DNA from: a virus
Direction: 5' to 3' (one strand)
UHGV virus genome: UHGV-0355102
DNA length: 11,853 nucleotides
In this document: positions 1 to 11,853 of the stretch, piece after piece
How positions within the stretch are numbered: position 1 is the stretch's first letter
Layout of the letters: each line of letters opens with the position of its first letter
Translations under genes and position numbers: made by a program
The notes under the pieces: generated by a model
Databases searched by the model: none
What the model saw: only the letters and a program-made list of their open reading frames with translations
What the model was told of the DNA's origin: nothing

Positions 1-599
1 GCCACTCTGGCGGTTTCAGCATGTTGTCTGGCATCATTCGCGTCTGCTGCCGCGGCCTTTTCAGATTCGCATGCCCGGGTCGCCGCTTCTGCAGCTTCAC
101 TGGCTTTTTGTCCGGCTTCAGCCGCCCTGCTGGTTGCCGTCTTTGCACTGTCAGATGCACTCTTCGCACTGGCTGCTGCACTGTCTTTTGACTGTGTGGC
201 CTGAGTGTTTTTTGTCGCCGTGTCTTCATTCAGGCGACGAATAGTGGCAAGGTCATCAGCCACATTATTCTGTATCTGCCGGAAATCTGTCAGCAGTTCT
301 CCGGGTATGCTCACCTCAACAAGACTGCGGCGTAACAGCATATTGAGCGTCACCGTACTTTCGGTCCCCTCAATACGCACACGTCCGTAGACAGCAGTCT
401 TCCCTTTCACCGTCACCGAAACCGCATACTCCCCCGGATCCATCGTCATTCCGTAATATCCACCTTCACGGGTCACTGCCGACGCACTGGTGCCGCTGAG
501 CGCATCCGGTGAAACTGTCAGCGCCGTCAGGGTAATATTTGCTCCTGATATCGCCTCACCATCAGGAGATTTCAGCGTCCCCGAAACAACAACACTCAC
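1..599 (-). CDS. Tail fibre protein, N-terminal part (partial; continues beyond the left edge of the window)
   Basis: The minus-strand frame is open from 599 down to position 1; I checked every in-frame triplet and found no stop. GTG start at 597-599 overlaps the TGA stop of the upstream gene (GTGA), with a GGAGG Shine-Dalgarno 6 nt upstream. The translation begins MSVVVSGTLKSPDGEAISGANITL..., a beta-rich domain of about 90 aa followed by Ala/Ser/Lys-rich repeats (DSAAASAKSASDSAKTATSRAAEAGQKASEAAEAA), which matches from memory the N-terminal architecture of enterobacterial prophage tail fibres. Not in the ORF track because it has a GTG start and no stop inside the window. Confidence 0.6.
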   Translation of the reverse strand, partial: MSVVVSGTLKSPDGEAISGANITLTALTVSPDALSGTSASAVTREGGYYGMTMDPGEYAVSVTVKGKTAVYGRVRIEGTESTVTLNMLLRRSLVEVSIPGELLTDFRQIQNNVADDLATIRRLNEDTATKNTQATQSKDSAAASAKSASDSAKTATSRAAEAGQKASEAAEAATRACESEKAAAADANDARQHAETARV

Positions 600-1246
600 A
601 CTCCACCTCCGTTAAACACTTTTTTACGGGCAGACAATGCACTGTCTGCCCCCTGTTTGATCCCAAGTTGCTCAACAAAACTCTGATAATGCTGCGCAGC
701 CAGCCCCGATTCTGCGCCACCGGCAGCATCCTTACTGAAAGCGCGAAACAACATCCAGTCCACCAGTGGGTTAACATAAGCATCTTCCAGTGGAACTGGC
801 GTATCATCGTCCTGCGTCAGAACATACACTGCCTCCGGTATCCGGCTTACCACTGCATCAATACTTATCTCTTTGTCAGGAGCAGGAAACAGCCAGAATA
901 CGCGCGGGGACAGGTCGTTGCTGATAAAACATTCAGGAATGCCCTTCATTGTGAGCCACTCAGGATACTGCGCATCCAGCACCTCCCGGGATAATGGTCT
1001 GACTGCACTACCGTCACTGAGGCATATCACGTCAAGAAGTTGTATTACACCATCGGGCAAAACCTGACGGGCGCCCGGAACACAACTGATTGTTTCCAGG
1101 CTTGCGCCAGCATCCGGTCTCGCCAGAATCACTGCCCTCACAGCATCATTGTAATAATCGCACAATTCCTGCAGGGGCCAGCGAACCATCATCGGGTCAA
1201 CCAGTTGTGTATTCACACGTCCGATGATTTCTGTAATCGTCGTCAT
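596..1246 (-). CDS. Hypothetical virion/morphogenesis protein (216 aa)
   Basis: 216-aa ORF in the same orientation as the structural operon, with its ATG overlapping the stop of the upstream gene at 1246 and its stop overlapping the tail fibre start. No family recognised from sequence alone. Confidence 0.55.
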   Translation of the reverse strand: MTTITEIIGRVNTQLVDPMMVRWPLQELCDYYNDAVRAVILARPDAGASLETISCVPGARQVLPDGVIQLLDVICLSDGSAVRPLSREVLDAQYPEWLTMKGIPECFISNDLSPRVFWLFPAPDKEISIDAVVSRIPEAVYVLTQDDDTPVPLEDAYVNPLVDWMLFRAFSKDAAGGAESGLAAQHYQSFVEQLGIKQGADSALSARKKVFNGGGV

Positions 1247-1809
1247 CAGTAAAACCTTTGTCTGCGGACAGGATTGCGGTATGAGGAGTACGGACTTGTC
1301 GTCAGTGTGTCGCGATATGCCCGACGGATACCCTCAGAAAACAGCACAGAGAAATACTGTGCGCGCGACGGGTCTGACCATGAAACCCCGGTCTGCATGA
1401 ACAACCGTTCAAGCGCCCCTGCTGCCACTTCTTCAGACCATGCCCGCAGTTCATCCTGCACCTGACGGCTCCCTGCTTTCGGAGCAACGGCATAAAGCAC
1501 ACTCACCTCTCCGGGCGAACAGGCAAAATGCATTACCCGCCCCGGGCGGATTTCTACATCATGACCGGCAAAAAGCTCACGCCCGTCAGCGAGGATACGA
1601 ATAATATGTACGCACTCTTCATTCTCCGCGTCATATGGCAGCACACAGTCCTCTCCAGCTGACGGTGACAGCGTGGCTTCACGGCGGCACAACAGGGACT
1701 GACGGCAGAATGCCACTGCCGACATGGATAACGCATCCGTCATCATAATGTTCAGCGGACCACTGATATGGCGACGGACATACGGTAAAAAATCAGTCAG
1801 TTCCGCCAT
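1246..1809 (-). CDS. Hypothetical virion/morphogenesis protein (about 187 aa)
   Basis: The six-frame ORF runs 1246..1869, but the ATG at 1807-1809 (MAELTDFLPYV...) is preceded by GGAGA about 8 nt upstream and gives only a 17-nt overlap with the upstream gene, so I prefer it. Function unknown. Confidence 0.5.
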   Translation of the reverse strand: MAELTDFLPYVRRHISGPLNIMMTDALSMSAVAFCRQSLLCRREATLSPSAGEDCVLPYDAENEECVHIIRILADGRELFAGHDVEIRPGRVMHFACSPGEVSVLYAVAPKAGSRQVQDELRAWSEEVAAGALERLFMQTGVSWSDPSRAQYFSVLFSEGIRRAYRDTLTTSPYSSYRNPVRRQRFY

Positions 1810-2254
1810 GCTGTTCAGTCTCCGCAACACGACGGCGAAATGCCTCACGCACACGGATACGGAATGCATCAGCCGTTTCTTTCGGGTCTTTGTGAATATT
1901 CAGCTCTTCTGCCTCACACAACGTTGCCAGCCGTGCGGACGTGAGTTTGCTCAAATCCACATCCTGACCACCAACGCTAACCACAAAACTGTTCTCCGCT
2001 TCTGCAAGAGCAACCTGTTCTCTTTCCTGCGCCTGCTGTGCCTGCCGCAACTGCTCATCCTGTTGTTGCTTTTTCAGTACGCCATCAAGCTCTTCATGAC
2101 GAACCCAGACGTCAGAAAAGGCCAGCAACTGCCAAGCAAACGCATTGTCAACATGCACCGGCTCAAGACGCGGGAACAGTGTACGACTCCCGGTAAGGGT
2201 ATCCTTTTTCACGGGTTTGGGGCCGATATAGACAACGGCAATTTTTTCGCTCAT
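1793..2254 (-). CDS. Hypothetical protein (153 aa) in the head/neck module
   Basis: ORF with GGGGAA Shine-Dalgarno upstream of the ATG at 2252-2254; central Gln/Glu-rich predicted helical segment. Function unknown. Confidence 0.5.
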   Translation of the reverse strand: MSEKIAVVYIGPKPVKKDTLTGSRTLFPRLEPVHVDNAFAWQLLAFSDVWVRHEELDGVLKKQQQDEQLRQAQQAQEREQVALAEAENSFVVSVGGQDVDLSKLTSARLATLCEAEELNIHKDPKETADAFRIRVREAFRRRVAETEQHGGTD

Positions 2255-2268
2255 ATAATTCCCCGGGT

Positions 2269-2291
2269 AAAAAAGCCCGCATGACGCGGGC
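2269..2291 (-). terminator. Intrinsic terminator-like hairpin (minus strand) downstream of the 129-aa gene
   Basis: On the minus strand: GCCCGC - 5-nt loop - GCGGGC (plus coordinates 2275-2291) followed directly by TTTTTT (plus-strand A-run 2269-2274). Confidence 0.45.
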
Positions 2292-2304
2292 CAGAAGGTT
2301 TATA

Positions 2305-2694
2305 TCAGTAACCCACCACGGTATAACGCAGCAGAACATTCAGGGTGCCGGTTGCAGCGGCAGTCTTAATGGTGACAGTAACCAGCTCCCCGTCACGCAG
2401 TGTGGTGTACGGCTCCACGGGCACATATCTGGCAAATTTTGCAGAAACAGCTTCGCTGTTATCGATGAGAACATGCTCACCGGACTTAATGCTGACGGTT
2501 GCAGTACCCAGACCGCCCGTTGAAACCAGTTGCAGTGAGTTGATACGGATACCAACTGGCAGTGAAAGAAGATGAATAACACTGTCCGCTTCCGCAGCGT
2601 TCACTGTAAACACACCTTCTGCCACCGACTCATTACCGTGCGTACCTGAATAAATCCGCTCACTCAGTGATGGAGCAAGGATAGTCTTTGCCAT
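2305..2694 (-). CDS. Hypothetical small virion protein (129 aa), possibly a capsid-associated/decoration protein
   Basis: ORF immediately downstream of the major capsid gene with AGGAG upstream; predicted beta-rich; bracketed by hairpin plus T-run elements on both sides. Functional assignment is a guess from position only. Confidence 0.5.
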   Translation of the reverse strand: MAKTILAPSLSERIYSGTHGNESVAEGVFTVNAAEADSVIHLLSLPVGIRINSLQLVSTGGLGTATVSIKSGEHVLIDNSEAVSAKFARYVPVEPYTTLRDGELVTVTIKTAAATGTLNVLLRYTVVGY

Positions 2695-2709
2695 AATTAA
2701 TGACTCCTG

Positions 2710-2732
2710 AAAAAGCCGGGCGATAACCCGGC
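2710..2732 (-). terminator. Terminator/attenuator-like hairpin after the capsid gene (minus strand)
   Basis: On the minus strand: GCCGGG - TTATCG loop - CCCGGC (plus 2715-2732) followed by TTTTT (plus-strand A-run 2710-2714), just downstream of the capsid stop at 2749. Confidence 0.4.
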
Positions 2733-2748
2733 ATGGGGAAAGGAAAAA

Positions 2749-3963
2749 TCACAGCTTCACTGCGGTATCAATGGCAATCACGCCGTGATCCTGCATCTTG
2801 CCGCTCTTCTCGGGGAAACGGATTTTTTTCAGACCGTTGATCCAGCTGATTGCTATCTCAGTACGGTTATCCATATCCGTTTTCTTCTCAACCATGTTGA
2901 AGTGACCGCCGCCCTTCTGACCGTACGCATTCGCCAGCGCCTGAGCCCCCAGCAGCATGGCACGGTCGATGTTGGTTGCAGCAGCCTTTTCTGCCATCGT
3001 TGCCGTAAGGTCATTGTTCGACACCATAACCTTTGACCCCTGATAGAAACGGATCGGCATCCCCGCATACTTACGGACCAGAATATTGCGCCACATCGCA
3101 CATTCGCCTTTGAACAGCGGATGGTTAAAACCTTTTGAGCGGTTTACGGCACGCGTCATCATCTGGTTCCAGTCCTTGCCGGACGTGGAGGTGTACCAGT
3201 CATTCCACTGACGCGGCGTGACGTAGAGGACGTAATACGGATCTTCGCCATACAATTCATCACCGGACAGGCGTACCGGTTGTAACGGATGAGCCATCTC
3301 GTCAATAAACAACGAGAGATTATCGACCAGCGCAAGGGTGAACAGGTCAGACTGGTCAATACTCTCAAAACTCGTCGCATCCCCACCGAAAAAATGACGA
3401 TCATGCGTCGGCGGCAGTACGTCGTTGATCATGATTTTTTTGAATTCAGGGTGATCTGCCGTTGGCAGAATGGTGTCATCAGCAACAAAATCACCGCGGG
3501 CACCGGCAAGATGCACTATCGCACACTGGTCTTGCAGGTCGTTAAAGTACGTACCCAGCAGCGTTCTGGCAGAGGATGCCAGGTTGAACTTCGTACGCTG
3601 CTGGCTCATACGTCCGCCCGCATCCACCAGGTGACGGCCCTGATTAATTTTCAGGGAAAAATCAGCATGGCTGAGGTCTTCACCACGGCCTTCAACGCGC
3701 TCATCCCCCATCGTCGGACGTTTAGAGAGTTTGTGCATGATGCTGAACGTCACTTCATCACCGGCCTGTTTGTTGAGGTCCGTGATTCGCACAACCGGTG
3801 CACCTGCACTGGTCTGCTTCGTGCTTTTCTTGTCAGGCGAAACTGCTTTTGGTGCATCCTGCTGTTCAGTGAGAATATTCACCATCGAGCGGTTTCGGTT
3901 GGCAGCCGTGAAAAGCGCCACCTGATACAGCTTATTCGCCTGGGCTGTTGTTACTGTGGTCAT
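2749..3963 (-). CDS. Major capsid (coat) protein, putative
   Basis: 404-aa ORF with a strong GAAGGAG Shine-Dalgarno, directly downstream of an acidic scaffold-like gene in a terminase-portal-scaffold-capsid order. Size is consistent with a capsid protein. Assignment is by position and size, not a verified alignment. Confidence 0.7.
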   Translation of the reverse strand: MTTVTTAQANKLYQVALFTAANRNRSMVNILTEQQDAPKAVSPDKKSTKQTSAGAPVVRITDLNKQAGDEVTFSIMHKLSKRPTMGDERVEGRGEDLSHADFSLKINQGRHLVDAGGRMSQQRTKFNLASSARTLLGTYFNDLQDQCAIVHLAGARGDFVADDTILPTADHPEFKKIMINDVLPPTHDRHFFGGDATSFESIDQSDLFTLALVDNLSLFIDEMAHPLQPVRLSGDELYGEDPYYVLYVTPRQWNDWYTSTSGKDWNQMMTRAVNRSKGFNHPLFKGECAMWRNILVRKYAGMPIRFYQGSKVMVSNNDLTATMAEKAAATNIDRAMLLGAQALANAYGQKGGGHFNMVEKKTDMDNRTEIAISWINGLKKIRFPEKSGKMQDHGVIAIDTAVKL

Positions 3964-3985
3964 TACGTCAGTACTCCTTCAGTGG

Positions 3986-4993
3986 TTACCCGAGTTTTTC
4001 CAGAATCGCGTCAATTTCAGCGTCCGTCATGCCTCGCATGGCTGCTTCAATTTCGGTATGGGAAGCACCAAGTAACCGTTCAAAATTATCACCGGTTCCG
4101 ACGGAAGCCGTGTTGCCAAGCTCTGACGGGGAAGCAGGCACTGCCATCTCCCGTTCAGCGGCTTTCACTTTTTCTTCTGCCGTTTTCCGGATATCAGTGT
4201 TGTCTGCCTTGTCATTAGAAGGCGGCTCACTGGCTTCACCGAAAGCGAGCTGCGTACGGCGGGCCACTTCGGCGAAACGTTCAGTGAGCGGTTTGTCTTT
4301 CCATACGGGGTCATTCTGGAGCTTCCCGTCGATGGATACGGCAACCGAGAAGCGATCCGGATCGGAGTTCTGCCACGTTTTCAGCACCGGCACGTCATTC
4401 ATTGCATCAAGAACCGGTGATAAATCCTCACCACCATGACCTTCTGCCTGCTGTGCTGATTGCTGAACACGGGACTGGAGATAGTTATTTTTACGGATAA
4501 GCGAAGCCACCGCGTCACCAATTTCCGGATACATCTCCCTGATACGGGCAATCTTCTCATCAGAGATTTTTTCGTTTTCCGGTAACGGTGCGGGTTTCAT
4601 ACCGGCCTGGTGAATCTGAGACGTCAGCAGTTCAACCAGGCGTTTTTCTTCGGCTATCTGTCCCCGAAGAAGTGCGGCTTCCTGTTCGGCCCGCTGCTTA
4701 CCGGAACGTTCAGCCTCAAGGACTTCATAGGGAATGACGTGTTTACCATCGCGGGTGAGCACACCCTTCGCCTCCGGCTCCTTCACGTCCTGCGTCTGCT
4801 CAGCACTGGCATCCGGCGTCGGTGCCGCAGTGTTATCGCCCGTCTGTGTCTGTGCTGCCTCATCCGCATGATTTTCTGTGGCGGCCTCTGTCACGCCGTC
4901 CTGTTCGTGACCGTCAATATCCACATCCCCAAGTCCTTCCAGCATTTTTTCCAGTTGTTCCGGGGTTTCTTCACCCGTAAATTCAAAATCCAT
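3986..4993 (-). CDS. Scaffolding protein, putative
   Basis: 335-aa ORF between portal and capsid genes; highly acidic, Ala/Glu/Gln-rich, with a low-complexity predicted helical composition typical of phage scaffold proteins; GGAG Shine-Dalgarno 7 nt upstream of the ATG. Confidence 0.55.
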   Translation of the reverse strand: MDFEFTGEETPEQLEKMLEGLGDVDIDGHEQDGVTEAATENHADEAAQTQTGDNTAAPTPDASAEQTQDVKEPEAKGVLTRDGKHVIPYEVLEAERSGKQRAEQEAALLRGQIAEEKRLVELLTSQIHQAGMKPAPLPENEKISDEKIARIREMYPEIGDAVASLIRKNNYLQSRVQQSAQQAEGHGGEDLSPVLDAMNDVPVLKTWQNSDPDRFSVAVSIDGKLQNDPVWKDKPLTERFAEVARRTQLAFGEASEPPSNDKADNTDIRKTAEEKVKAAEREMAVPASPSELGNTASVGTGDNFERLLGASHTEIEAAMRGMTDAEIDAILEKLG

Positions 4994-5130: not shown

Positions 5131-5656
5131 TTCCGTTAAGTTCAGGATATTCATAGCGGCAATTCATGCATCCGCTGTTGTAGTGTATGTAGCATCTGTT
5201 GCTGAAGAGCTTCCTGCTCCTGTTCCATATTCTGTATGCCGGTAATGATTTCTGCCGTATGCGCCTGGTTGAGCGCATCCACATAACGCTGTCCCTGTGC
5301 CGCGGCGACATCCCGTTGTGCGCCAGCATTATCCCGTTGCGCAGCTGCCTGTGCCCTGGCAGCTTCTGCTTCCAGTTTAGCCACCCGGCCTGCCATTTCG
5401 CGCATCTGCAGTTCCTGTTGTTGCTGCTCCTGGGCCTGTTGCTGCTGAGCGGCCTGCTGCTCTTCCGGGGTCATCTCATCCGGTGATTTTGGTGTCCCCA
5501 GCGCCGCACGAATACGTTCGACAAATTCCTGTTTCTGCGGCACATCCAGAAGGTTAACCCACAGGTCGAGCACGACGGCCTGCACCTGAGGTGGCAGCCC
5601 CTGAATAACCTCTGACATTCGCTGTGCAAGCTGTGCCTTAAACGCCGGTGTCTGCT

Positions 5657-5830
5657 GAACAGGAGCCAGCGCAATATGTGTATTTAACCTTGAAATATCA
5701 TTGGTCAGTTCACCATTATCACCTTCAGCATTGAGAACAATGGGATGTTTTCCGGGTTGAACAGGATTTTCAGGTTGCCAGCCAGCAGTTTCAGGTCATG
5801 CAGGAGTCGGAAAAACTTATCCAGGACACG
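5657..5830. repeat. Left 174-bp repeat block: two adjacent 87-bp units (5657-5743 and 5744-5830)
   Basis: 5657-5743 is the exact reverse complement of 6060-6146, and 5744-5830 is the exact reverse complement of 6147-6233. Both checked base by base at 87/87 identity. Confidence 0.9.
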
Positions 5831-6059
5831 ATGGGGGTTTATTCCGCATTTCTCGGGCAGGATTCAAATGCATCGTCCGGCGTGGCGATCAGCAACCTGG
5901 TGGAGCAGGGAGCCACAACCCTTGCCGAAATCAACGATAACTACCAGTTTGCCTGCCAGCAGGTGGGAAGGCTGTTGCTCGCTTATCTTCTCGATGGCCT
6001 GAAAAAGCGGCGTAATCATGCGGTGGTGATTAATCGTGATGATCGCCAGCGTCGCCAGA

Positions 6060-6233
6060 CCATTGTTCTCAATGCTGAAGGTGATAATGGTGAACTGACC
6101 AATGATATTTCAAGGTTAAATACACATATTGCGCTGGCTCCTGTTCCGTGTCCTGGATAAGTTTTTCCGACTCCTGCATGACCTGAAACTGCTGGCTGGC
6201 AACCTGAAAATCCTGTTCAACCCGGAAAACATC
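6060..6233. repeat. Right 174-bp repeat block: two adjacent 87-bp units (6060-6146 and 6147-6233)
   Basis: Inverted partners of the left block; the pairs are interleaved rather than nested (left = X'Y, right = XY'), so the region is not a simple inverted repeat. All four units are portal coding sequence. Confidence 0.9.
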
Positions 6234-7468
6234 AGCAACGCTTTTCTGATTTTTTCGGGCCGGATTCAGTTTAATAATGCCATCCGGGCGCTCGATCTGC
6301 TCCATCAGCTCGTTGTCTGACAACTGGGTGGCATCCTCGTCCATAATCACGCGTTTGGCCTGAAGCAACCACGTCAGTTTTATACGACGAAAATTCACCT
6401 CATCCTGTGCCGGAATGGCCCGGGAAATCAGCCCGTAAGGCTCCCCGGTTTTATCCTTCCGGTATCCCCAGAAGGGAACCAGCGGGAACATCCCCTGCGG
6501 CGCACTGCAGGGGCGATCCACAATAAAGTGCGGTCCCACAAACCAGGCTTCACGAATACGACTTACCCGCCCGACTCTCACCTGCACCCGCCCGGATGCC
6601 ACAGCCACCGCATGCATCAGATTATTTTTATCAAAGGCCACCACCCGTCCATTACTGAGTTCAATCACCGGAAGACGCTCGAATGTACGGTAATAAACCA
6701 CCTGAAGCAGCACACGACGGCGTTCACGCTGAAGCCATTCGTTCTCCTTACGATCCCATGACTGATACTCTTCCCATGCACTCATCAACGGACTGGGCTG
6801 GCCTTCAGTAACCGTGGTATCGACAAAACCACGCCAGTCATCAATGGCATAATCGATAACCTGAGCCATTCCCGGGAATGTGGCTTTTGCCTCATCGGTA
6901 TCCATCCAGCGGCGGCGCATCAGCCAGCGGCAGTCACTTAAATCAGCTTCCCGGCTGAGCCAGTCCCAGAACACTTCATTCCGGCTGACAGTAGACACCT
7001 TAAACTCAGGCCCGAACGGATCGCTGTTCCGTCTGACCTCCACCCAGCTGAGCCCCGCCTTGATTTGTTCCGCATAGGCATCAGAGCGGGCTTTATTCAT
7101 ATTGCCAAGGCGGCATGCATCGGCAAATTCAGCATTAATAGCTTCAGCCAGTTTTTCAGTTTCATCATCTGGCTCGTCTGACATCACCACCAGATCAGTC
7201 CGTGTTTTGGCCTCCATTCCCAGAACACCATCAACGGTAGGCGCGATGAGGTTATGGATAGTCATCGGCTGACCGCGATCTTTCAGTACCTGAAGAACTT
7301 CTGGTGGCAACTGGTCACCATCGTAATACGCACAGGCCTTGTTTGCGGCATCGCGCCATTTAGGCTGACTGTCAATATCAGAACAAAGCGCCTGTAACTG
7401 GCGCTGAGAAAAACGCGGCGTGGCTCCGTTGTCGTTTTTCGTCGCCATGGTATTAGTTTCATTTTTCA

Positions 7469-9175
7469 TCAGTGAGCCATCCAGTGTGTGGTTCTGCGTT
7501 TATCCGTTTTCTGTCTTACCCTCACCGGCATTCTGGCGCGCATCTCCTGGGCAATCATGTAGCTCATAAGCTGATCATCAAAACAGCCTTCCTGTGCATT
7601 CATGGAGCCTTTCGCGTCATAAACGTAGGTGTTCATTTCTGATAATGTGCCCGTCCAGCGGATCCCCGACAGGCCGTTATTCAGCAGCGTTTTCATTCCC
7701 TCAGTCAGGACCGGTTTACTCTGGCGGGTTGTCAGCCAGCCAAGACGGGGCGTATCGTCGTCATATGCCTGGTCAAGGTGCTGTTCGTTGTAGATATAAC
7801 GCGTCGGATAGAGTTCCCGGAGTTTCAGGATAACGGCATGTCCGTGATTGTTACGCTCCGGCCCCACAAACGCGTTGTTGTACATACGGCAGACCTGCGC
7901 AATGAGATGAGCGAAAAGCTCCGCATCGAGATGACCAAACCAGTGGGCTACCTGCTCACCATTACTACATCTGATGATATCCAGCGATGAGCGGTCTCCG
8001 TGCTCCAGCCCCTCAGCGGTATCCGCTCCGCATACATACTCTTCATCCGGATCCGGTAGCTCCCAGACCAGCAGATAATTCATCAGCGTCCGGTGCTGTT
8101 CGGCTTTATTCCCGTCACGCAGAGACTGCGCTTTGGTCTTCGTTCCTGTAACCGGTTCAATGTCATAAACAATCAGCGGTGGCGAACAGAATGACTCTGC
8201 CTGCAGCGTGCTTTCCGCACTGAACACCCGTCGTCCGGACGTCAGAAACGCCTCCTGTGGTGTTGAGGGAAACTCCTGCTTCATTTCCTCACGCTGTTCA
8301 GTTTCCTTGCAGATGTACCAGTGTTTCTGCTCATCGGTAAGCGTGATGTTCATTGCTTTTTCAACCGCAGAAAAATACGCTGTTTTTTCCCGTGACAGCT
8401 TAAGTCCGCTTTCCGGCACTCTGGCGCTGTATTTGAGATCCTGCCACCAGGCGTAAAAATGGAATTTATAATCCTGTGGCGTCAGCGCCAGCCCTGATGC
8501 AGTGATTTCCTGTGCCCGGTTACTCATCTCGTAAAAATCGCCACCCACACCTTCAGCAGTGGATTCATCAAAAATAATGCACTCATCAGAGACGGCATTA
8601 AGTGTACCGGTTCGCAGCTCTTTCGCCTTAGCCGGATATTTTGCGCAAATTTTGCCGTGCTCTGAGATATGCAGGCGCTGCACCGTACCTGAACGGAATG
8701 AGGTTGCCACCTGGATACTCGAGCCGTGCCCAAACAGGATATAGCCACCGCTGGCTCCGCTACGACGTTCAACGATGGTGAATGAGGCTCTCAGCCAGTC
8801 AGGAAGATGATCAAACGGTACAGCAATTTTGGTGCGGAAAATTTCACTGGCAGCCTGTTTATCCTGAGCGACAATCCCGCATTTGAGATGCGGTATGAAT
8901 AATGCCTGGTCGAGAAGATAAATATCAATGGCCGTGGAAAACCCCAGCTGGCGTGCTTTCAGGATAATATTTTTATTGTGCATGCTCCGGAACAACTGGC
9001 GCTGCGCCGGTCGCATTCTGAAGGTGACCAGCTCACCTTTTTCGTTCTGTATCTTGTAGAGATGATTGAGCCGCCACCAGGGATTGCTCAGTTTAGTCAT
9101 GATGAACAGACGTTGTTCGGCCTCTGTCATTTCTGACGGTTCATCACATCGCGGTTCATTCTTCCGGAATGTCAT
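7469..9175 (-). CDS. Terminase large subunit
   Basis: 568-aa ORF between the small terminase and portal genes; GGGGAG Shine-Dalgarno 5 nt upstream of the ATG at 9173-9175; stop overlaps the portal ATG (ATGA). Size and position are typical of a terminase large subunit; a possible Walker-A-like segment lies near the N-terminus. Confidence 0.8.
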   Translation of the reverse strand: MTFRKNEPRCDEPSEMTEAEQRLFIMTKLSNPWWRLNHLYKIQNEKGELVTFRMRPAQRQLFRSMHNKNIILKARQLGFSTAIDIYLLDQALFIPHLKCGIVAQDKQAASEIFRTKIAVPFDHLPDWLRASFTIVERRSGASGGYILFGHGSSIQVATSFRSGTVQRLHISEHGKICAKYPAKAKELRTGTLNAVSDECIIFDESTAEGVGGDFYEMSNRAQEITASGLALTPQDYKFHFYAWWQDLKYSARVPESGLKLSREKTAYFSAVEKAMNITLTDEQKHWYICKETEQREEMKQEFPSTPQEAFLTSGRRVFSAESTLQAESFCSPPLIVYDIEPVTGTKTKAQSLRDGNKAEQHRTLMNYLLVWELPDPDEEYVCGADTAEGLEHGDRSSLDIIRCSNGEQVAHWFGHLDAELFAHLIAQVCRMYNNAFVGPERNNHGHAVILKLRELYPTRYIYNEQHLDQAYDDDTPRLGWLTTRQSKPVLTEGMKTLLNNGLSGIRWTGTLSEMNTYVYDAKGSMNAQEGCFDDQLMSYMIAQEMRARMPVRVRQKTDKRRTTHWMAH

Positions 9176-9971
9176 CCAGTCTCCCCGAATTACTCATTTC
9201 ATGCAGCGATGACACGATGTCACTGACAGGCGTAACAACGCCCCGACGCTGGCTGGTCAGAATATCGGTTTCCGCTCTGAGTTTATCTCTGGCAGCGTTG
9301 GTTCTTTCCCGGTCAGCACGAAGTTTTGGTGCTGTTTCAGCCAGAACGTCCAGCGTCAGCAATGAGCGTTCAATTGACTCGATACGGGCAATATTCCGGT
9401 CAAGAGCCTGTTCAGCTTTGAGTATTTTGTCGTACAGAGCAACGCGGGTTTCCACGTCAGCCGCCTCTTTCAGGTCGGCGAACATTTTTTTCAGTGTTCC
9501 TGTTACTGAAAGTGCGCGGGCCCGGGTAAACACCAGTTCATCGGCAAGTTCCATTCCGACTGCATCATCTATGAGGTTATCTGCCTCGAGATACTTCGCG
9601 TATCCACGGTGTCTGACGGCGTGGGTGTTACGCTGAGAAAAAGCATTTGAAGGTGGCAAAAGTCTGGAACCACGAGTCCGTTTCGTTTCTGCCAAATTTG
9701 CGCATTTTTCATCACAACCATCATCGCCTGAAGGCTCGTCATGACTGGAGTTGCCGTCAGATTTCTGCGCACTTTTTTGATCATCAATTTGCGCATTTTT
9801 CTGCGCACTTTTCTCTGTATTTCTGGGGGAGTGTTTGCGCAGTTTAATGTACCGCCGAGCCGTGTCATAACTGATATTGTTCTGACGGCACCAGTCCTGA
9901 AGCTTTATGCCGGTTTTGACATGTTCGCGTCGAAATGCCTGCTCCAGCTTTTTCCAGTCCAGCTTTGCCAT
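9156..9971 (-). CDS. Terminase small subunit, putative (DNA-binding packaging protein)
   Basis: 271-aa ORF immediately upstream of, and overlapping by 20 nt, the large terminase gene; AAGGTG Shine-Dalgarno; basic N-terminus consistent with a DNA-binding domain; charged, predicted helical C-terminal half. Assignment is mainly positional. Confidence 0.55.
   Translation of the reverse strand: MAKLDWKKLEQAFRREHVKTGIKLQDWCRQNNISYDTARRYIKLRKHSPRNTEKSAQKNAQIDDQKSAQKSDGNSSHDEPSGDDGCDEKCANLAETKRTRGSRLLPPSNAFSQRNTHAVRHRGYAKYLEADNLIDDAVGMELADELVFTRARALSVTGTLKKMFADLKEAADVETRVALYDKILKAEQALDRNIARIESIERSLLTLDVLAETAPKLRADRERTNAARDKLRAETDILTSQRRGVVTPVSDIVSSLHEMSNSGRLDDIPEE
9695..9812. repeat. Cluster of short direct repeats inside the small terminase gene
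   Basis: AATTTGCGCATTTTT occurs at 9695-9709 and 9786-9800; TTTCTGCGCACTTTT occurs at 9762-9776 and 9798-9812; a related GTTTGCGCAG lies near 9833-9842. On the coding strand these give KSAQK/KNAQ peptide repeats. Confidence 0.6.
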
Positions 9972-10510
9972 GTCACCTTCTGACGTTCTCTGTTAAAAAC
10001 TGATGCACAATGACTGCTGTAAATTTTCAGATTTCACACAGCAGAGCCATGTCTGATTAATGTTTAACCTTATTTAGGTTATATCCGCTTCATTCCACTA
10101 CAGCACCAGATAGGCTGCCTCGCGGATAAATGCCAAAGTCTCCTGATATAGAAACCCGTCGCCACATCGAGCGCTGATCAACATTTGTATATTCACTGCG
10201 ACAGAAAGAATTTATTTTATTGAATAGTTAGAAATACAGAATTGCATGCTTTATAAGCATTGACGCACACTTCATTTTTAGCAATATATTCTGTTCTCAT
10301 AGACGATCAGCCCTGCATGCACTGCCGGACACCGTCGGCAATTTTACAGACCTAAGAGGCAATACCAAAAAGCTAACGCGCTTTATCAAGACTTGAACAA
10401 CCAACCAATAAAAAAAGCACCAGTACCGCTACCAATGCCCATTTCGTCGTTGTTCACAGCATTCTGTGTACCCACTGTATTTCGCGTCATATCACCACGT
10501 CAGACAATCC

Positions 10511-10539
10511 TTAAGGATTACATAAGATTTACGCATAAT
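10511..10539 (+). promoter_or_regulatory. Candidate sigma-70-like promoter for the cargo gene (weak)
   Basis: TTAAGG (10511-10516), 17-bp spacer, CATAAT (10534-10539), about 35 nt upstream of the ATG at 10574. An alternative is TTGACG at 10260-10265 with TATATT at 10285-10290 (19-bp spacer). Both are hexamer matches picked by eye only. Confidence 0.2.
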
Positions 10540-10573
10540 AATGCCCATTTTCAACACAGACAAGGGAATTTAT

Positions 10574-11155
10574 ATGTTAAATCAAACGCTAACAAAATCT
10601 CTTCTTATATTTTTACTTGTCATAATCGTTTCTGTATCCATCATATACATTGTAAGAACTCCAGTCAGACTTGATGTGAACGATGTCACTGAGATTAACC
10701 AGAAACATCCCATTATTTTTCTCATCCGGCATGGGGAAAGATGCGATCGCTCCCAAAGAATATGTCTTTCAGCACATGAGGGAATCACAGTAAACGGAGC
10801 TAACAAAGCTCAACAATATGGAGATAAATTCAGAAGAATGTTTCCATACTACAGTCTCTATTCTACAGACACACTCCGAACAATGCAGACAGCCACTTTT
10901 TTTTCGGGAGGTAAGACAGCAACTATTCCGGACATATCGACATGTGATGATAACGCAGTAAATAATATCCTTAAAATATCAAAATCAGATCATGTTACTG
11001 TGATTTTCACACATAATCACTGTCTGTCCAGAATTGCAAAAAAAATGAATGGATGGAGATTTAAACCTGATTATATGGGCACACTGGTTCTGCATCGGGA
11101 AAATCACAATCTGATTCTCGACGGACATTTAAAACCAAACGAGCTTACCCAGTGA
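10574..11155 (+). CDS. Ais/PmrG-family histidine phosphatase (LPS core heptose(II)-phosphate phosphatase-like), exported; prophage cargo gene
   Basis: 193-aa ORF from the ATG at 10574 with AAGGGA 7 nt upstream (the track ORF starts at an earlier ATG, 10541). Hydrophobic N-terminal signal/anchor, then an RHGERCDRS motif (histidine phosphatase RHG signature) and IFTHNHCL...FKPDY, which match my recollection of E. coli Ais across most of the length. Opposite strand to the phage genes and visibly AT-rich. Confidence 0.8.
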   Translation: MLNQTLTKSLLIFLLVIIVSVSIIYIVRTPVRLDVNDVTEINQKHPIIFLIRHGERCDRSQRICLSAHEGITVNGANKAQQYGDKFRRMFPYYSLYSTDTLRTMQTATFFSGGKTATIPDISTCDDNAVNNILKISKSDHVTVIFTHNHCLSRIAKKMNGWRFKPDYMGTLVLHRENHNLILDGHLKPNELTQ

Positions 11156-11206
11156 TCCATTTGTTGATAATGCACTGGCATTGATTCAGGTTATATCTCT
11201 CCTCAT

Positions 11207-11231
11207 AAAAAAGGCCAGCGATTGAGCTGGC
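11207..11231 (-). terminator. Intrinsic terminator after Rz/Rz1 (minus strand), possibly bidirectional
   Basis: GCCAGC - 6-nt loop - GCTGGC (11214-11231); on the minus strand the hairpin is followed by TTTTTT (plus-strand A-run 11207-11212). It sits between the convergent Rz stop (11236) and the cargo gene stop (11155). Confidence 0.5.
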
Positions 11232-11235
11232 TCTG

Positions 11236-11694
11236 TTAATCGAGGCATTGCATCCTGATGTACTCCTGCAGGTAGTTAACCTGCGCGGTTATCTTGTCGA
11301 TTCCACTTCGGAGACGGTAATAATTGAGTTCAGCATCTGCTGTAAGTCCTGAGCTTTCTCCATCGCCCATGCCGCTGGCTCCGGTCGTTGACTTTGCACA
11401 GGTGGCGGCGACTTGCAGGCGCTTACGCCCAGCAGAAACATCAGCACGGAGACTTTCAATAGTCGCGTTAGCATCAGCAAGCTCCCTGGTGTATCTGGCA
11501 TCGAGTGCAGCAACATCACGCTGGCGCTGCTGTATGTCAGCAATGGTGGCGTTCGCCTGGCTGAGTTTTGTCTTCGCATCATCTCGCTGCTCTTTGTAGG
11601 TGATGGCGTTATCACGGTAATGGTCTGTTGCCAGCCACAGCGATCCACAACCAAGCAGCAGGACAATAAGCACGCCATACAGCACACGATTCAT
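11236..11694 (-). CDS. Rz: Spanin, inner-membrane subunit (Rz, i-spanin)
   Basis: 152-aa protein from the ATG at 11692-11694 (MNRVLYGVLIVLLLGCGSLW...HYRDNAITYKEQRD...RQRDVAALDARYTRELADA...), closely resembling lambda Rz as I recall it: N-terminal transmembrane helix plus a periplasmic coiled coil. The track ORF starts 19 codons further upstream, which I do not accept. Confidence 0.9.
   Translation of the reverse strand: MNRVLYGVLIVLLLGCGSLWLATDHYRDNAITYKEQRDDAKTKLSQANATIADIQQRQRDVAALDARYTRELADANATIESLRADVSAGRKRLQVAATCAKSTTGASGMGDGESSGLTADAELNYYRLRSGIDKITAQVNYLQEYIRMQCLD
11289..11474 (-). CDS. Rz1: Spanin, outer-membrane lipoprotein subunit (Rz1, o-spanin), embedded in Rz in the +1 frame
   Basis: A 61-aa ORF lying entirely inside Rz in another frame: MLTRLLKVSVLMFLLGVSAC, a lipoprotein signal with a VSAC lipobox, followed by a proline-rich mature peptide KSPPPVQSQRPEPAAW. 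The exact start is uncertain; an alternative Met lies 11 codons downstream. Confidence 0.75.
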   Translation of the reverse strand: MLTRLLKVSVLMFLLGVSACKSPPPVQSQRPEPAAWAMEKAQDLQQMLNSIITVSEVESTR

Positions 11695-11695
11695 A

Positions 11696-11809
11696 TCACC
11701 ACCAACGGATTGCCCAGACCAGAACAGCAATTGCCACAATACGAATGGCAAAAGCTGCCGCTCTTGTTAAATCCAGACTTGCTGGCGTCTCCACCTCAAT
11801 GCCTTTCAT
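11696..11809 (-). CDS. Small single-pass membrane protein (37 aa), or the C-terminal end of a longer gene entering from beyond the right edge
   Basis: ATG at 11807-11809 with GAGG about 9 nt upstream; encodes MKGIEVETPASLDLTRAAAFAIRIVAIAVLVWAIRWW; stop 1 nt before the Rz ATG. The same frame is open to the window edge (11853), so it could instead be the tail of a longer upstream gene. The other two frames contain stops. Confidence 0.3.
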   Translation of the reverse strand: MKGIEVETPASLDLTRAAAFAIRIVAIAVLVWAIRWW

Positions 11810-11853
11810 AATGGACAACCTCAGAAAGAATCTTTTATACTTCCTCACAGGGA

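What the first reader, a model, noticed from the sequence alone, without database searches (positions are those of the whole stretch)
1..2694. Compact module: only four small genes separate the capsid gene from a tail fibre gene
After the capsid gene come ORFs of 129, 153, about 187 and 216 aa, and then directly a tail fibre gene. Within these 2.7 kb there is no tail tube, tape measure, sheath or baseplate gene, and no P22-like gp10 or needle-sized ORF. Either the tail machinery is minimal or encoded elsewhere, the four proteins are adaptor/neck components of a short-tailed virion, or the element is a satellite-like or defective prophage. The four proteins have no function I can assign from sequence.
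Basis: inference. Interest (0 to 1): 0.35.

Follow-up and report, generated by a model that had tools for sequence, protein, structure and literature searches.

The report
Stx-type podophage neck gene block
The four small genes between the capsid and tail-fibre genes are the standard head-to-tail joining block of 933W/phi24B-type short-tailed E. coli prophages (a capsid cement protein, one protein of unknown role, and two stacked adaptor rings), so the compactness is ordinary and already explained by a solved virion structure.

Summary
On the minus strand the capsid gene (2749-3963) is followed by ORFs of 129, 153, 187 and 216 aa, then the 5' end of a tail-fibre gene (599-1).

This is not a minimal, satellite or tail-less element. 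It is the conserved late module of 933W/phi24B-type short-tailed lambdoid phages (Sepvirinae): 186 phage records cover at least 80% of window 1-4000 at 90-95% identity.

By 80-99% identity to phi24B proteins placed by cryo-EM in a 2026 preprint, and by my own fold and profile searches:
- **p129** is the trimeric capsid cement protein.
- **p187** is the portal-proximal dodecameric "neck" adaptor.
- **p216** is the distal "tail" adaptor (Pfam SU10_adaptor), which carries the fibres.
- **The fibre** starts with the N-terminal domain that docks on that adaptor.

The rest of the tail (hexameric nozzle, needle, giant ejection protein) lies downstream of the fibre gene, beyond the left edge, in a 99.9%-identical complete genome.

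Only p153 remains unexplained. It is a conserved family of about 150 aa, was not detected in the phi24B virion proteome, and matches no known family or fold. I tentatively propose a lambda FI-like assembly or packaging chaperone.

Separately, the portal gene in this window carries a 403-bp flipped segment that looks like an assembly artefact.

The parts
2749..3963 (-). Major capsid protein (HK97 fold, N4-gp56/Phage_capsid_3 family; T=9 shell in phi24B)
   Evidence: Pfam PF13252 at 6.6e-88. PDB 8h89_A ("Major capsid protein") at 4.8e-40; I take this to be the GP4 capsid from memory, not from tool output. 94.6% identical to phi24B gp69. Role taken from preprint 10.64898/2026.04.10.717836.
2715..2732 (-). 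G+C-rich hairpin plus T5 in the 54-nt gap after the capsid gene (terminator-like or mRNA-stabilising element)
   Evidence: Found, sequence. The stem is conserved in phi24B with a loop substitution.
2305..2694 (-). p129: capsid cement protein; trimers at three-capsomer junctions, anchored by His19
   Evidence: 96.9% identical to phi24B gp67, whose role is described in the preprint. The Y15-G17-T18-H19-G20-N21 motif is invariant, including in Vibrio phage homologues. PHROG 486 virion structural protein at 1e-59. The best PDB profile hit is the Pam1 cement protein 7eel_H, weak at E=0.051.
2274..2292 (-). G+C-rich hairpin plus T6 in the 50-nt gap after the cement gene
   Evidence: Found, sequence. 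Identical stem in phi24B, and an analogous hairpin at the same position in Vibrio phage D70.
1793..2254 (-). p153: conserved protein of unknown function (PHROG 482). Small beta N-domain, charged helical linker, C-domain of a beta-hairpin plus two helices. Probably not a virion component.
   Evidence: PHROG 482 at 1e-84. 145 clusters at 50% identity in 1.84 billion proteins. Same position in Vibrio phages douglas 12A4 and D70. No Pfam or PDB hit. AF2 pLDDT 72, and no Foldseek hit with E below 0.1. The phi24B homologue gp65 is absent from the virion proteome tables although it has 10 usable tryptic peptides.
1246..1809 (-). p187: portal-proximal ('neck') head-to-tail adaptor, dodecameric ring
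   Evidence: 79.6% identical to phi24B gp64 (role). The family profile hits GP4 gp81 (8jov_G, 12 chains) at 4.7e-9. AF2 pLDDT 86.8, pTM 0.81. Foldseek top hit is 8jov_G at E=5e-10, TM 0.77. It is followed by chains of portal-tail, neck or connector complexes of KHP30, P1, Pa223, LME-1, B2, DEV, SU10, crAss001 and T7 gp11.
596..1246 (-). p216: distal ('tail') adaptor, a dodecameric ring that makes the C12-to-C6 transition to the nozzle and carries the lateral fibres
   Evidence: Pfam PF24175 SU10_adaptor at 4.2e-32, 112.6 bits against a cutoff of 27. PDB 8jov_2 (GP4 gp82, 12 chains) at 1.3e-23. 98.6% identical to phi24B gp62 (role). RefSeq annotates it as a DUF6682 family protein.
1..599 (-). 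5' part (199 codons) of the lateral tail-fibre gene; the N-terminal beta-sandwich docks on p216
   Evidence: GTG start overlaps the p216 stop by 4 nt. The first 131 aa are 100% identical to phi24B gp61, including Lys65 and Lys67, which the preprint names as adaptor contacts. Pfam CarboxypepD_reg at 3.2e-9 and phage_tail_N at 9e-6. The full gene in FORC_069 is 671 aa with collagen repeats and a Peptidase_S74 domain.

Best explanation
Window 1-2694 is the head-completion and neck block of a 933W/phi24B-type short-tailed lambdoid prophage (Sepvirinae, Traversvirus-like).

**Shown for phi24B by cryo-EM and transferred here by 80-99% identity:**
- p129 trimers cement the T=9 capsid at three-capsomer junctions.
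- After DNA packaging, twelve copies of p187 bind the portal.
- Twelve copies of p216 stack on that ring and adapt the 12-fold symmetry to the 6-fold nozzle.
- Six trimeric fibres dock by their N-terminal beta-sandwich on the C-terminal helical domain of p216.

**Shown in related genomes:** the hexameric nozzle, trimeric needle and about 2800-aa ejection protein are encoded downstream of the fibre gene, outside the window. The tail looks missing only because the window ends in the fibre gene and because a podovirus tail is built from adaptors plus a nozzle, not from tube, tape measure or baseplate.

**Inferred:** p153 is a non-virion morphogenesis factor. It overlaps the p187 gene by 17 nt, which suggests translational coupling. 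I consider a lambda gpFI-like packaging or assembly chaperone the most likely role. Hairpins after the two high-copy capsid genes probably help set the roughly 540:12 expression ratio between shell and neck proteins.
For: - **Module identity:** megablast found 192 phage records, 186 covering at least 80% at 90-95% identity, almost all Stx-converting podophages. Annotated layouts of AU5Stx1, PhiR5_2 and phi24B match the window gene for gene.
- **Identity to phi24B proteins:** p216 98.6%, p187 79.6%, p153 90.2%, p129 96.9%, MCP 94.6%, fibre residues 1-131 100%.
- **phi24B cryo-EM roles:** gp67 cement protein, gp64 and gp62 two dodecameric adaptor rings of common fold, gp57 nozzle, gp56 needle, gp61 fibres bound to gp62.
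- **Independent tests for p216:** PF24175 at 4e-32 and 8jov_2 at 1e-23.
- **Independent tests for p187:** profile against 8jov_G at 4.7e-9. A confident AF2 model whose Foldseek hits are led by portal-tail/neck complex chains.
- **Independent test for p129:** invariant His19 motif.
- **Rest of the tail:** in the 99.9%-identical FORC_069 prophage, the nozzle matches the hexameric GP4 chain 8jov_A at 3.4e-52. A Phage_Tail_Tip needle and an LPD38 giant protein lie downstream of the fibre.
- **p153:** conserved at the same position in Vibrio phages. Not found in the phi24B proteome despite 10 suitable tryptic peptides.
Against: - The roles rest on a preprint structure of a related phage, not on this element.
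- p187 is only 79.6% identical to phi24B gp64.
- A profile-profile comparison of the p187 and p216 families found no sequence similarity. Their common fold is supported only by structure: 8jov_2 appears at rank 12.
- The Ig-like fold of p129 was not modelled here, and its PDB profile hit is weak (E=0.051).
- For p153 there is no positive evidence of any function. It shows no similarity to lambda FI (hhalign probability 0.2%). The N-domain of the AF2 model is unreliable. Absence from one proteome does not exclude a low-copy virion role.
- The portal gene of this copy is interrupted, so this element as assembled could not make particles.
Confidence: 0.9

Rival explanations
1. The element is a satellite or a defective prophage remnant that has lost its tail genes and borrows them from a helper.
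For: No nozzle, needle or ejection-protein gene lies inside the window. The portal gene is split into three pieces by a 403-bp inverted segment.
Against: The same gene order occurs in plaque-forming phi24B, 933W and PhiR5_2. In seven complete E. coli genomes that match the window at 99.7-99.9% identity the portal match is annotated as a single feature, and in FORC_069 the portal CDS is intact (715 aa). In FORC_069 the nozzle, needle, Lom and giant ejection protein follow the fibre. No complete genome carries the portal junction. Its blunt ends with equal 87-nt overlaps look like a mis-oriented assembly node.
Confidence: 0.04
2. All four small proteins are stacked neck or adaptor rings, giving a three- or four-ring neck as in crAss-like phages.
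For: [quoted passage not shown]
Against: p129 is 96.9% identical to a protein resolved on the capsid surface as a trimer. The phi24B neck shows only two adaptor rings. The p153 homologue was not detected in virions, and its model has no adaptor fold.
Confidence: 0.03
3. p153 is a low-copy virion component, for example a plug or DNA-end-binding protein in the adaptor lumen that is ejected with the DNA, rather than a non-virion chaperone.
For: The phi24B map has diffuse unassigned density in the adaptor lumen that disappears on ejection. The gene overlaps the neck adaptor gene. The C-domain gives weak, non-significant resemblance to LEM/SAP/Rho_N-type DNA-binding helix pairs.
Against: It is absent from a proteome that detected trace contaminants such as terminase and lysozyme, although it has 10 good tryptic peptides. 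No fold match is significant.
Confidence: 0.2

Closest known systems
Escherichia phage phi24B (vB_EcoP_24B) virion: gp67 cement, gp65, gp64 neck adaptor, gp62 tail adaptor, gp61 fibre (bioRxiv 10.64898/2026.04.10.717836)
   Same: Same gene order and same proteins: 96.9%, 90.2%, 79.6% and 98.6% identity, and 100% over fibre residues 1-131. The His19 anchor and fibre Lys65/Lys67 are conserved. The hairpins after the MCP and cement genes are conserved.
   Different: The neck adaptor allele is divergent (79.6%) and closer to PhiR5_2 (98.9%). The fibre diverges after residue 131. The closest complete prophage has no stx genes and carries a phosphatase moron instead of bor. The portal is interrupted in this window.
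Ralstonia phage GP4 portal-tail complex (PDB 8JOV): gp82 and gp81 adaptors, hexameric nozzle
   Same: p216 matches gp82 (1e-23). p187 matches gp81 (profile 4.7e-9; Foldseek TM 0.77). The nozzle matches 8jov_A (3.4e-52). The MCP matches 8h89, which I take to be the GP4 capsid (4.8e-40)..
   Different: About 20-33% identity only. In the related Ralstonia phage Gerry the two adaptor genes are in the opposite order. Gerry and Bcep22-like phages have no p153 homologue; an unrelated PHROG 13934 protein sits at that position. The fibres are entirely different.
Kuravirus SU10 adaptor (Pfam PF24175; PDB 7Z47) and the T7 gp11-type head-to-tail adaptor fold
   Same: p216 is a sequence member of PF24175. 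The p187 model superposes on the SU10, DEV, Pa223, crAss001 and T7 gp11 tail-complex chains.
   Different: SU10 and T7 use one adaptor ring, whereas this module has two paralogous rings. p187 itself does not reach PF24175 by sequence.
Lambda gpFI DNA-packaging chaperone (Pfam PF14000): positional and architectural analogue proposed for p153
   Same: Both are about 130-150 aa. Both lie between the capsid/decoration genes and the first head-completion gene. By my reading of the sequences, both are two small domains joined by a charged linker. From my own knowledge of Popovic et al. 2012, gpFI is not a virion component.
   Different: No detectable sequence similarity. The apparent domain order is reversed. 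No structural comparison was possible.

Membership tests
SU10_adaptor / DUF6682 head-to-tail adaptor (Pfam PF24175), for p216 | Whole-protein score above the Pfam gathering threshold over the full domain | tested here: met
   112.6 bits against a cutoff of 27, E=4.2e-32, residues 2-203 on profile positions 1-190 of 194.
SU10_adaptor / DUF6682 head-to-tail adaptor (Pfam PF24175), for p216 | Homologue seen as a 12-copy ring in a solved virion | tested here: met
   8jov_2 has 12 chains, E=1.3e-23. phi24B gp62 is a dodecamer at 98.6% identity.
Podophage head-to-tail adaptor fold (T7 gp11 / GP4 gp81 type), for p187 | Confident model whose best structural matches are adaptor subunits | tested here: met
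   pLDDT 86.8, pTM 0.81. 8jov_G at E=5.3e-10, TM 0.77/0.71. The next hits at probability 1.00 are mostly chains of podophage portal-tail or neck complexes (KHP30, Pa223, LME-1, B2, DEV, SU10, crAss001), with P1 and T5 connector/portal-complex chains among them.
Podophage head-to-tail adaptor fold (T7 gp11 / GP4 gp81 type), for p187 | Sequence membership of PF24175 | tested here: not met
   No Pfam hit for window p187. hhalign of the p187 and p216 families gives probability 0.4%. Only one 79%-identical relative, P0204, carries a precomputed PF24175 hit.
phi24B gp67 / Pam1 gp6-type trimeric capsid cement protein, for p129 | Conserved N-arm with the His19 anchor | tested here: met
   The Y15, G17, T18, H19, G20, N21 columns are invariant in E. 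coli and Vibrio phage homologues. 96.9% identical to gp67.
phi24B gp67 / Pam1 gp6-type trimeric capsid cement protein, for p129 | Ig-like 4+4 beta-sandwich fold and homology to a solved cement protein | tested here: inconclusive
   The best PDB profile hit is the Pam1 cement protein 7eel_H, but at E=0.051.
Lambda gpFI packaging chaperone (Pfam PF14000), for p153 | Sequence or profile similarity to FI | tested here: not met
   None of 49 family members hits PF14000 at E<=0.05. hhalign against lambda FI gives probability 0.2%.
Lambda gpFI packaging chaperone (Pfam PF14000), for p153 | Binds major capsid protein of proheads and stimulates packaging; absent from virions | not testable with these tools
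   Only indirect evidence: the phi24B homologue was not found in the virion proteome.
Sepvirinae (933W/phi24B-type) late module | Collinear terS-terL-portal-scaffold-MCP-cement-p153-adaptor-adaptor-fibre order at high nucleotide identity | tested here: met
   The portal is interrupted in this copy.

The most novel reading that the evidence does not exclude
p153 (PHROG 482; about 145 clusters at 50% identity; also fused behind a RyR domain in F116-like Pseudomonas phages) represents an uncharacterised class of non-virion morphogenesis chaperones of T=9 podophages. It would be functionally analogous to lambda gpFI, with one small domain binding the capsid or portal vertex and one helix-pair domain binding DNA or terminase. 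The unrelated PHROG 13934 proteins at the same position in GP4- and Bcep22-like phages would be a second solution to the same task.
Probability: 0.25. Interest if true: 0.35.

Novelty: already known. Interest (0 to 1): 0.12.

Why it matters
It matters little for discovery. The block is the standard neck of a medically important phage group, the Shiga-toxin converting podophages, and its architecture has just been solved.

The practical value is in annotation. In the RefSeq and GenBank records examined here three of the four genes are labelled "hypothetical protein" (p216 is DUF6682 family) or only generic "(virion) structural protein". They can now be named cement protein, neck adaptor and tail adaptor.

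The one open point is p153. It is a conserved protein, apparently not part of the virion, and its role in assembly of these phages has not been studied.

Tried and rejected
- **p153 against known families and structures:** Pfam (single protein and 49 members), PDB sequence search (single and profile), Foldseek against PDB and BFVD. Nothing was significant. The weak LEM/SAP/Rho_N-like hits (probability 0.15-0.4) are not evidence.
- **p153 family against other candidates:** hhalign against the position-equivalent PHROG 13934 proteins and against lambda FI were both negative.
- **Diverse FI profile:** the homologue search listed only close (at least 86% identical) relatives, so it was of no use.
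- **Multi-domain relatives of p153:** Pfam scan of P0128 and others gave only spurious low-complexity hits.
- **p187 against p216 families:** hhalign found no sequence signal. The shared fold is visible only structurally.
- **EHEC phage mass-spectrometry paper (PMC12502783):** the main text gives no per-protein list.
- **Satellite, defective-prophage and four-ring-neck readings:** rejected for the reasons given under the rival explanations.
Full report
**What is there**

All genes of the window's left 10 kb are on the minus strand:

| Feature | Coordinates | Size |
|---|---|---|
| terS | 9156-9971 | 271 aa |
| terL | 7469-9175 | 568 aa |
| portal (interrupted) | 5151-7469 | three pieces |
| scaffold-like protein | 3986-4993 | 335 aa |
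| major capsid protein | 2749-3963 | 404 aa |
| p129 | 2305-2694 | 129 aa |
| p153 | 1793-2254 | 153 aa |
| p187 | 1246-1809 | 187 aa |
| p216 | 596-1246 | 216 aa |
| tail fibre, 5' part | 599-1 | 199 codons, runs off the edge |

- The longest ATG ORF for p187 is 207 aa, but the PHROG alignment starts at residue 21 and most full-length homologues are 187 aa.
- The fibre frame starts at GTG 599.
- p153/p187, p187/p216 and p216/fibre overlap by 17, 1 and 4 nt.
- MCP/p129 and p129/p153 are separated by gaps of 54 and 50 nt.

**What it belongs to**

- Megablast of window 1-4000 found 192 phage records. Of these, 186 cover at least 80% at 90-95% identity, and nearly all are Stx-converting short-tailed phages such as 933W, VT2-Sakai, Min27 and phi24B.
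- The annotated layouts of AU5Stx1, PhiR5_2 and phi24B are collinear with the window.
- The whole window matches prophages in seven complete E. coli genomes (FORC_069, NCCP15648 and others) at 99.7-99.9% identity, six of them at 99.9%.
- In FORC_069 the fibre gene (671 aa, with collagen repeats and Peptidase_S74) is followed by:
  - a Gp38_N adhesin-like gene and cor;
  - a 541-aa gene that matches the hexameric GP4 nozzle chain 8jov_A at 3.4e-52;
  - a 424-aa Phage_Tail_Tip "needle";
  - lom;
  - a giant LPD38-domain protein whose annotated CDS spans 8,355 nt.

The tail is not missing. It continues past the left edge.

**Identities of the four proteins**

A 2026 preprint (doi 10.64898/2026.04.10.717836) reports the cryo-EM structure of phi24B:
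- a T=9 capsid of gp69, with trimers of the cement protein gp67 at three-capsomer junctions, anchored by His19;
- a portal dodecamer, gp72;
- two stacked dodecameric adaptor rings of common fold, gp64 ("neck") and gp62 ("tail");
- a hexameric nozzle gp57 and a trimeric needle gp56;
- six gp61 fibre trimers, whose N-terminal beta-sandwich binds the C-terminal helical domain of gp62 through Lys65 and Lys67.

Mapping the preprint's gp numbers onto the GenBank record is consistent at every named protein. It gives the following identities:

| Window protein | phi24B protein | Identity |
|---|---|---|
| p129 | gp67 | 96.9% |
| p153 | gp65 | 90.2% |
| p187 | gp64 | 79.6% |
| p216 | gp62 | 98.6% |
| fibre residues 1-131 | gp61 | 100% |

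Independent checks made here:
- **p216** hits Pfam PF24175 SU10_adaptor at 4.2e-32. It also hits the 12-copy GP4 chain 8jov_2 at 1.3e-23.
- **p187** as a family profile hits the 12-copy GP4 gp81 chain at 4.7e-9.
  - Its AlphaFold model is confident (pLDDT 86.8, pTM 0.81).
  - Foldseek returns GP4 gp81 first (E=5e-10, TM 0.77).
  - Chains of the portal-tail, neck or connector complexes of KHP30, P1, Pa223, LME-1, B2, DEV, SU10, crAss001, Moo19 and T7 gp11 follow.
- **p129** keeps the motif Y15-G17-T18-H19-G20-N21 invariantly, even in 25-34%-identical Vibrio phage homologues. Its best PDB profile hit, though weak (E=0.051), is the Pam1 cement protein, the relative named by the preprint.
- **The fibre fragment** carries Lys65 and Lys67 and the CarboxypepD_reg/phage_tail_N domain.

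**The remaining unknown, p153**

- It belongs to PHROG 482 (unknown function).
- An exhaustive HMMER search finds 145 clusters at 50% identity, nearly all about 140-160 aa.
- Homologues sit at exactly the same position in Vibrio phages douglas 12A4 and D70, between the cement and neck-adaptor genes.
- In the F116-like Pseudomonas phage PA8 the domain lies C-terminal to a RyR domain in a 290-aa protein at the same position.
- The Ralstonia phage Gerry and the Bcep22-like phages lack it. They have an unrelated PHROG 13934 protein there.
- No Pfam, PDB-sequence or Foldseek match is significant.
- The AF2 model (pLDDT 72) is poor for residues 1-60. It gives a long helix at 53-88, a beta-hairpin, and two helices.
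- The phi24B homologue gp65 is never mentioned in the preprint.
  - It is absent from the proteome tables, which list even trace terminase and lysozyme.
  - It would yield 10 tryptic peptides of 7-30 residues.

I therefore infer that p153 is a non-virion morphogenesis factor. Its size, its position between capsid/decoration genes and the first head-completion gene, and its two-domain-plus-charged-linker build recall lambda gpFI. There is no sequence similarity, and I could not test fold similarity. This remains a hypothesis, at about 0.25-0.3 probability.

**How the block works**

Steps taken from the phi24B structure and transferred by homology:
1. Shell proteins MCP and p129 are made in about 540 copies each.
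2. After packaging, 12 p187 subunits bind the portal clip and stem.
3. Twelve p216 subunits stack on that ring and adapt the symmetry to the 6-fold nozzle.
4. Six fibre trimers dock on p216.
5. The needle plugs the nozzle.
6. On receptor binding the needle leaves, and the giant ejection protein and DNA exit.

Two strong hairpin-plus-T-run elements lie exactly in the gaps after the MCP gene (2732-2715) and after the p129 gene (2292-2274).
- Their stems are conserved in phi24B, and analogous hairpins occur in the Vibrio phages.
- I infer that they attenuate or stabilise transcripts so that shell genes are expressed far above neck genes.
- Because Q-modified polymerase reads through terminators, an RNA-stability role is as likely as termination.

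**Verdict on the finding**

- The module is already known. It is ordinary for this phage group, and interest is low. Only p153 has residual interest.

**Things seen in passing**

1. **Portal gene rearranged.** Relative to FORC_069, window 5744-6146 is the exact reverse complement of a 403-bp stretch, and 87 bp are duplicated in inverted form at each side, a net gain of 174 bp.
   - The junctions are blunt, with no microhomology.
   - No complete E. coli genome contains the junction.
   - The pattern is what a mis-oriented 403-bp assembly-graph node with 87-bp overlaps would give. A real template-switch rearrangement cannot be excluded.
2. **Mosaic module.** MCP, p335, p153 and p187 are 97-99.8% identical to PhiR5_2. 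p129, p216 and the fibre N-domain are closest to phi24B. Two neck-adaptor alleles only about 80% identical therefore work with an almost invariant tail adaptor.
3. **Adaptor gene order reversed.** In the Ralstonia phage Gerry the p216 homologue is encoded before the p187 homologue.
4. **Different moron.** A low-GC gene for an LPS core heptose(II)-phosphate phosphatase lies between terS and Rz, where phi24B has bor.
5. **No stx genes.** The closest complete prophage lacks stx between Q and the SASA esterase gene.

Noticed in passing
window 5657-6233 (portal gene, minus strand 5151-7469): The portal gene is broken. Window 5744-6146 is the exact reverse complement of 403 bp of the intact FORC_069 portal gene, with 87 bp duplicated in inverted form on each side (+174 bp). 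The junctions are blunt with no microhomology, and no complete E. coli genome has the junction. It looks like a mis-oriented assembly node; otherwise it is an inactivating rearrangement.
   Followed up: yes
window 2715-2732 and 2274-2292 (minus strand): Strong G+C-rich hairpins followed by T runs lie exactly in the intergenic gaps after the capsid gene and after the cement gene. The stems are conserved in phi24B, and analogous hairpins occur at these positions in Vibrio phages D70 and douglas 12A4. They may set the high shell-to-neck expression ratio.
   Followed up: partly
window 596-4993 compared with L002 (PhiR5_2) and L003 (phi24B): The module is mosaic. MCP, p335, p153 and p187 are 97-99.8% identical to PhiR5_2 but only 80-95% to phi24B. 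p129, p216 and the fibre N-domain are 97-100% identical to phi24B and 82-92% to PhiR5_2. The neck adaptor therefore has two alleles about 80% identical that pair with a nearly invariant tail adaptor.
   Followed up: partly
L007 (Ralstonia phage Gerry) 8980-10259: In this Ralstonia phage the homologue of the distal adaptor p216 is encoded before the homologue of the proximal adaptor p187, the reverse of the E. coli and Vibrio phage order.
   Followed up: partly
L012 (Pseudomonas phage PA8) 7129-8001: In F116-like phages the p153-type domain lies C-terminal to a RyR domain (PF02026, 4e-11) in a 290-aa protein at the same position, between the cement-like gene and the adaptor gene.
   Followed up: partly
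window 10000-11853: This is a low-GC (39-45%) region. It holds a plus-strand moron (10541-11155, 204 aa) annotated in RefSeq as LPS core heptose(II)-phosphate phosphatase, between terS and the Rz-like lysis gene (11236-11751). phi24B carries bor at this place.
   Followed up: no
L004 (E. coli FORC_069) 31189-31955: The 99.9%-identical complete prophage has no stx genes between the Q antiterminator gene and the SASA esterase (capsid decoration) gene. It is an stx-negative member of the Stx-phage group.
   Followed up: no
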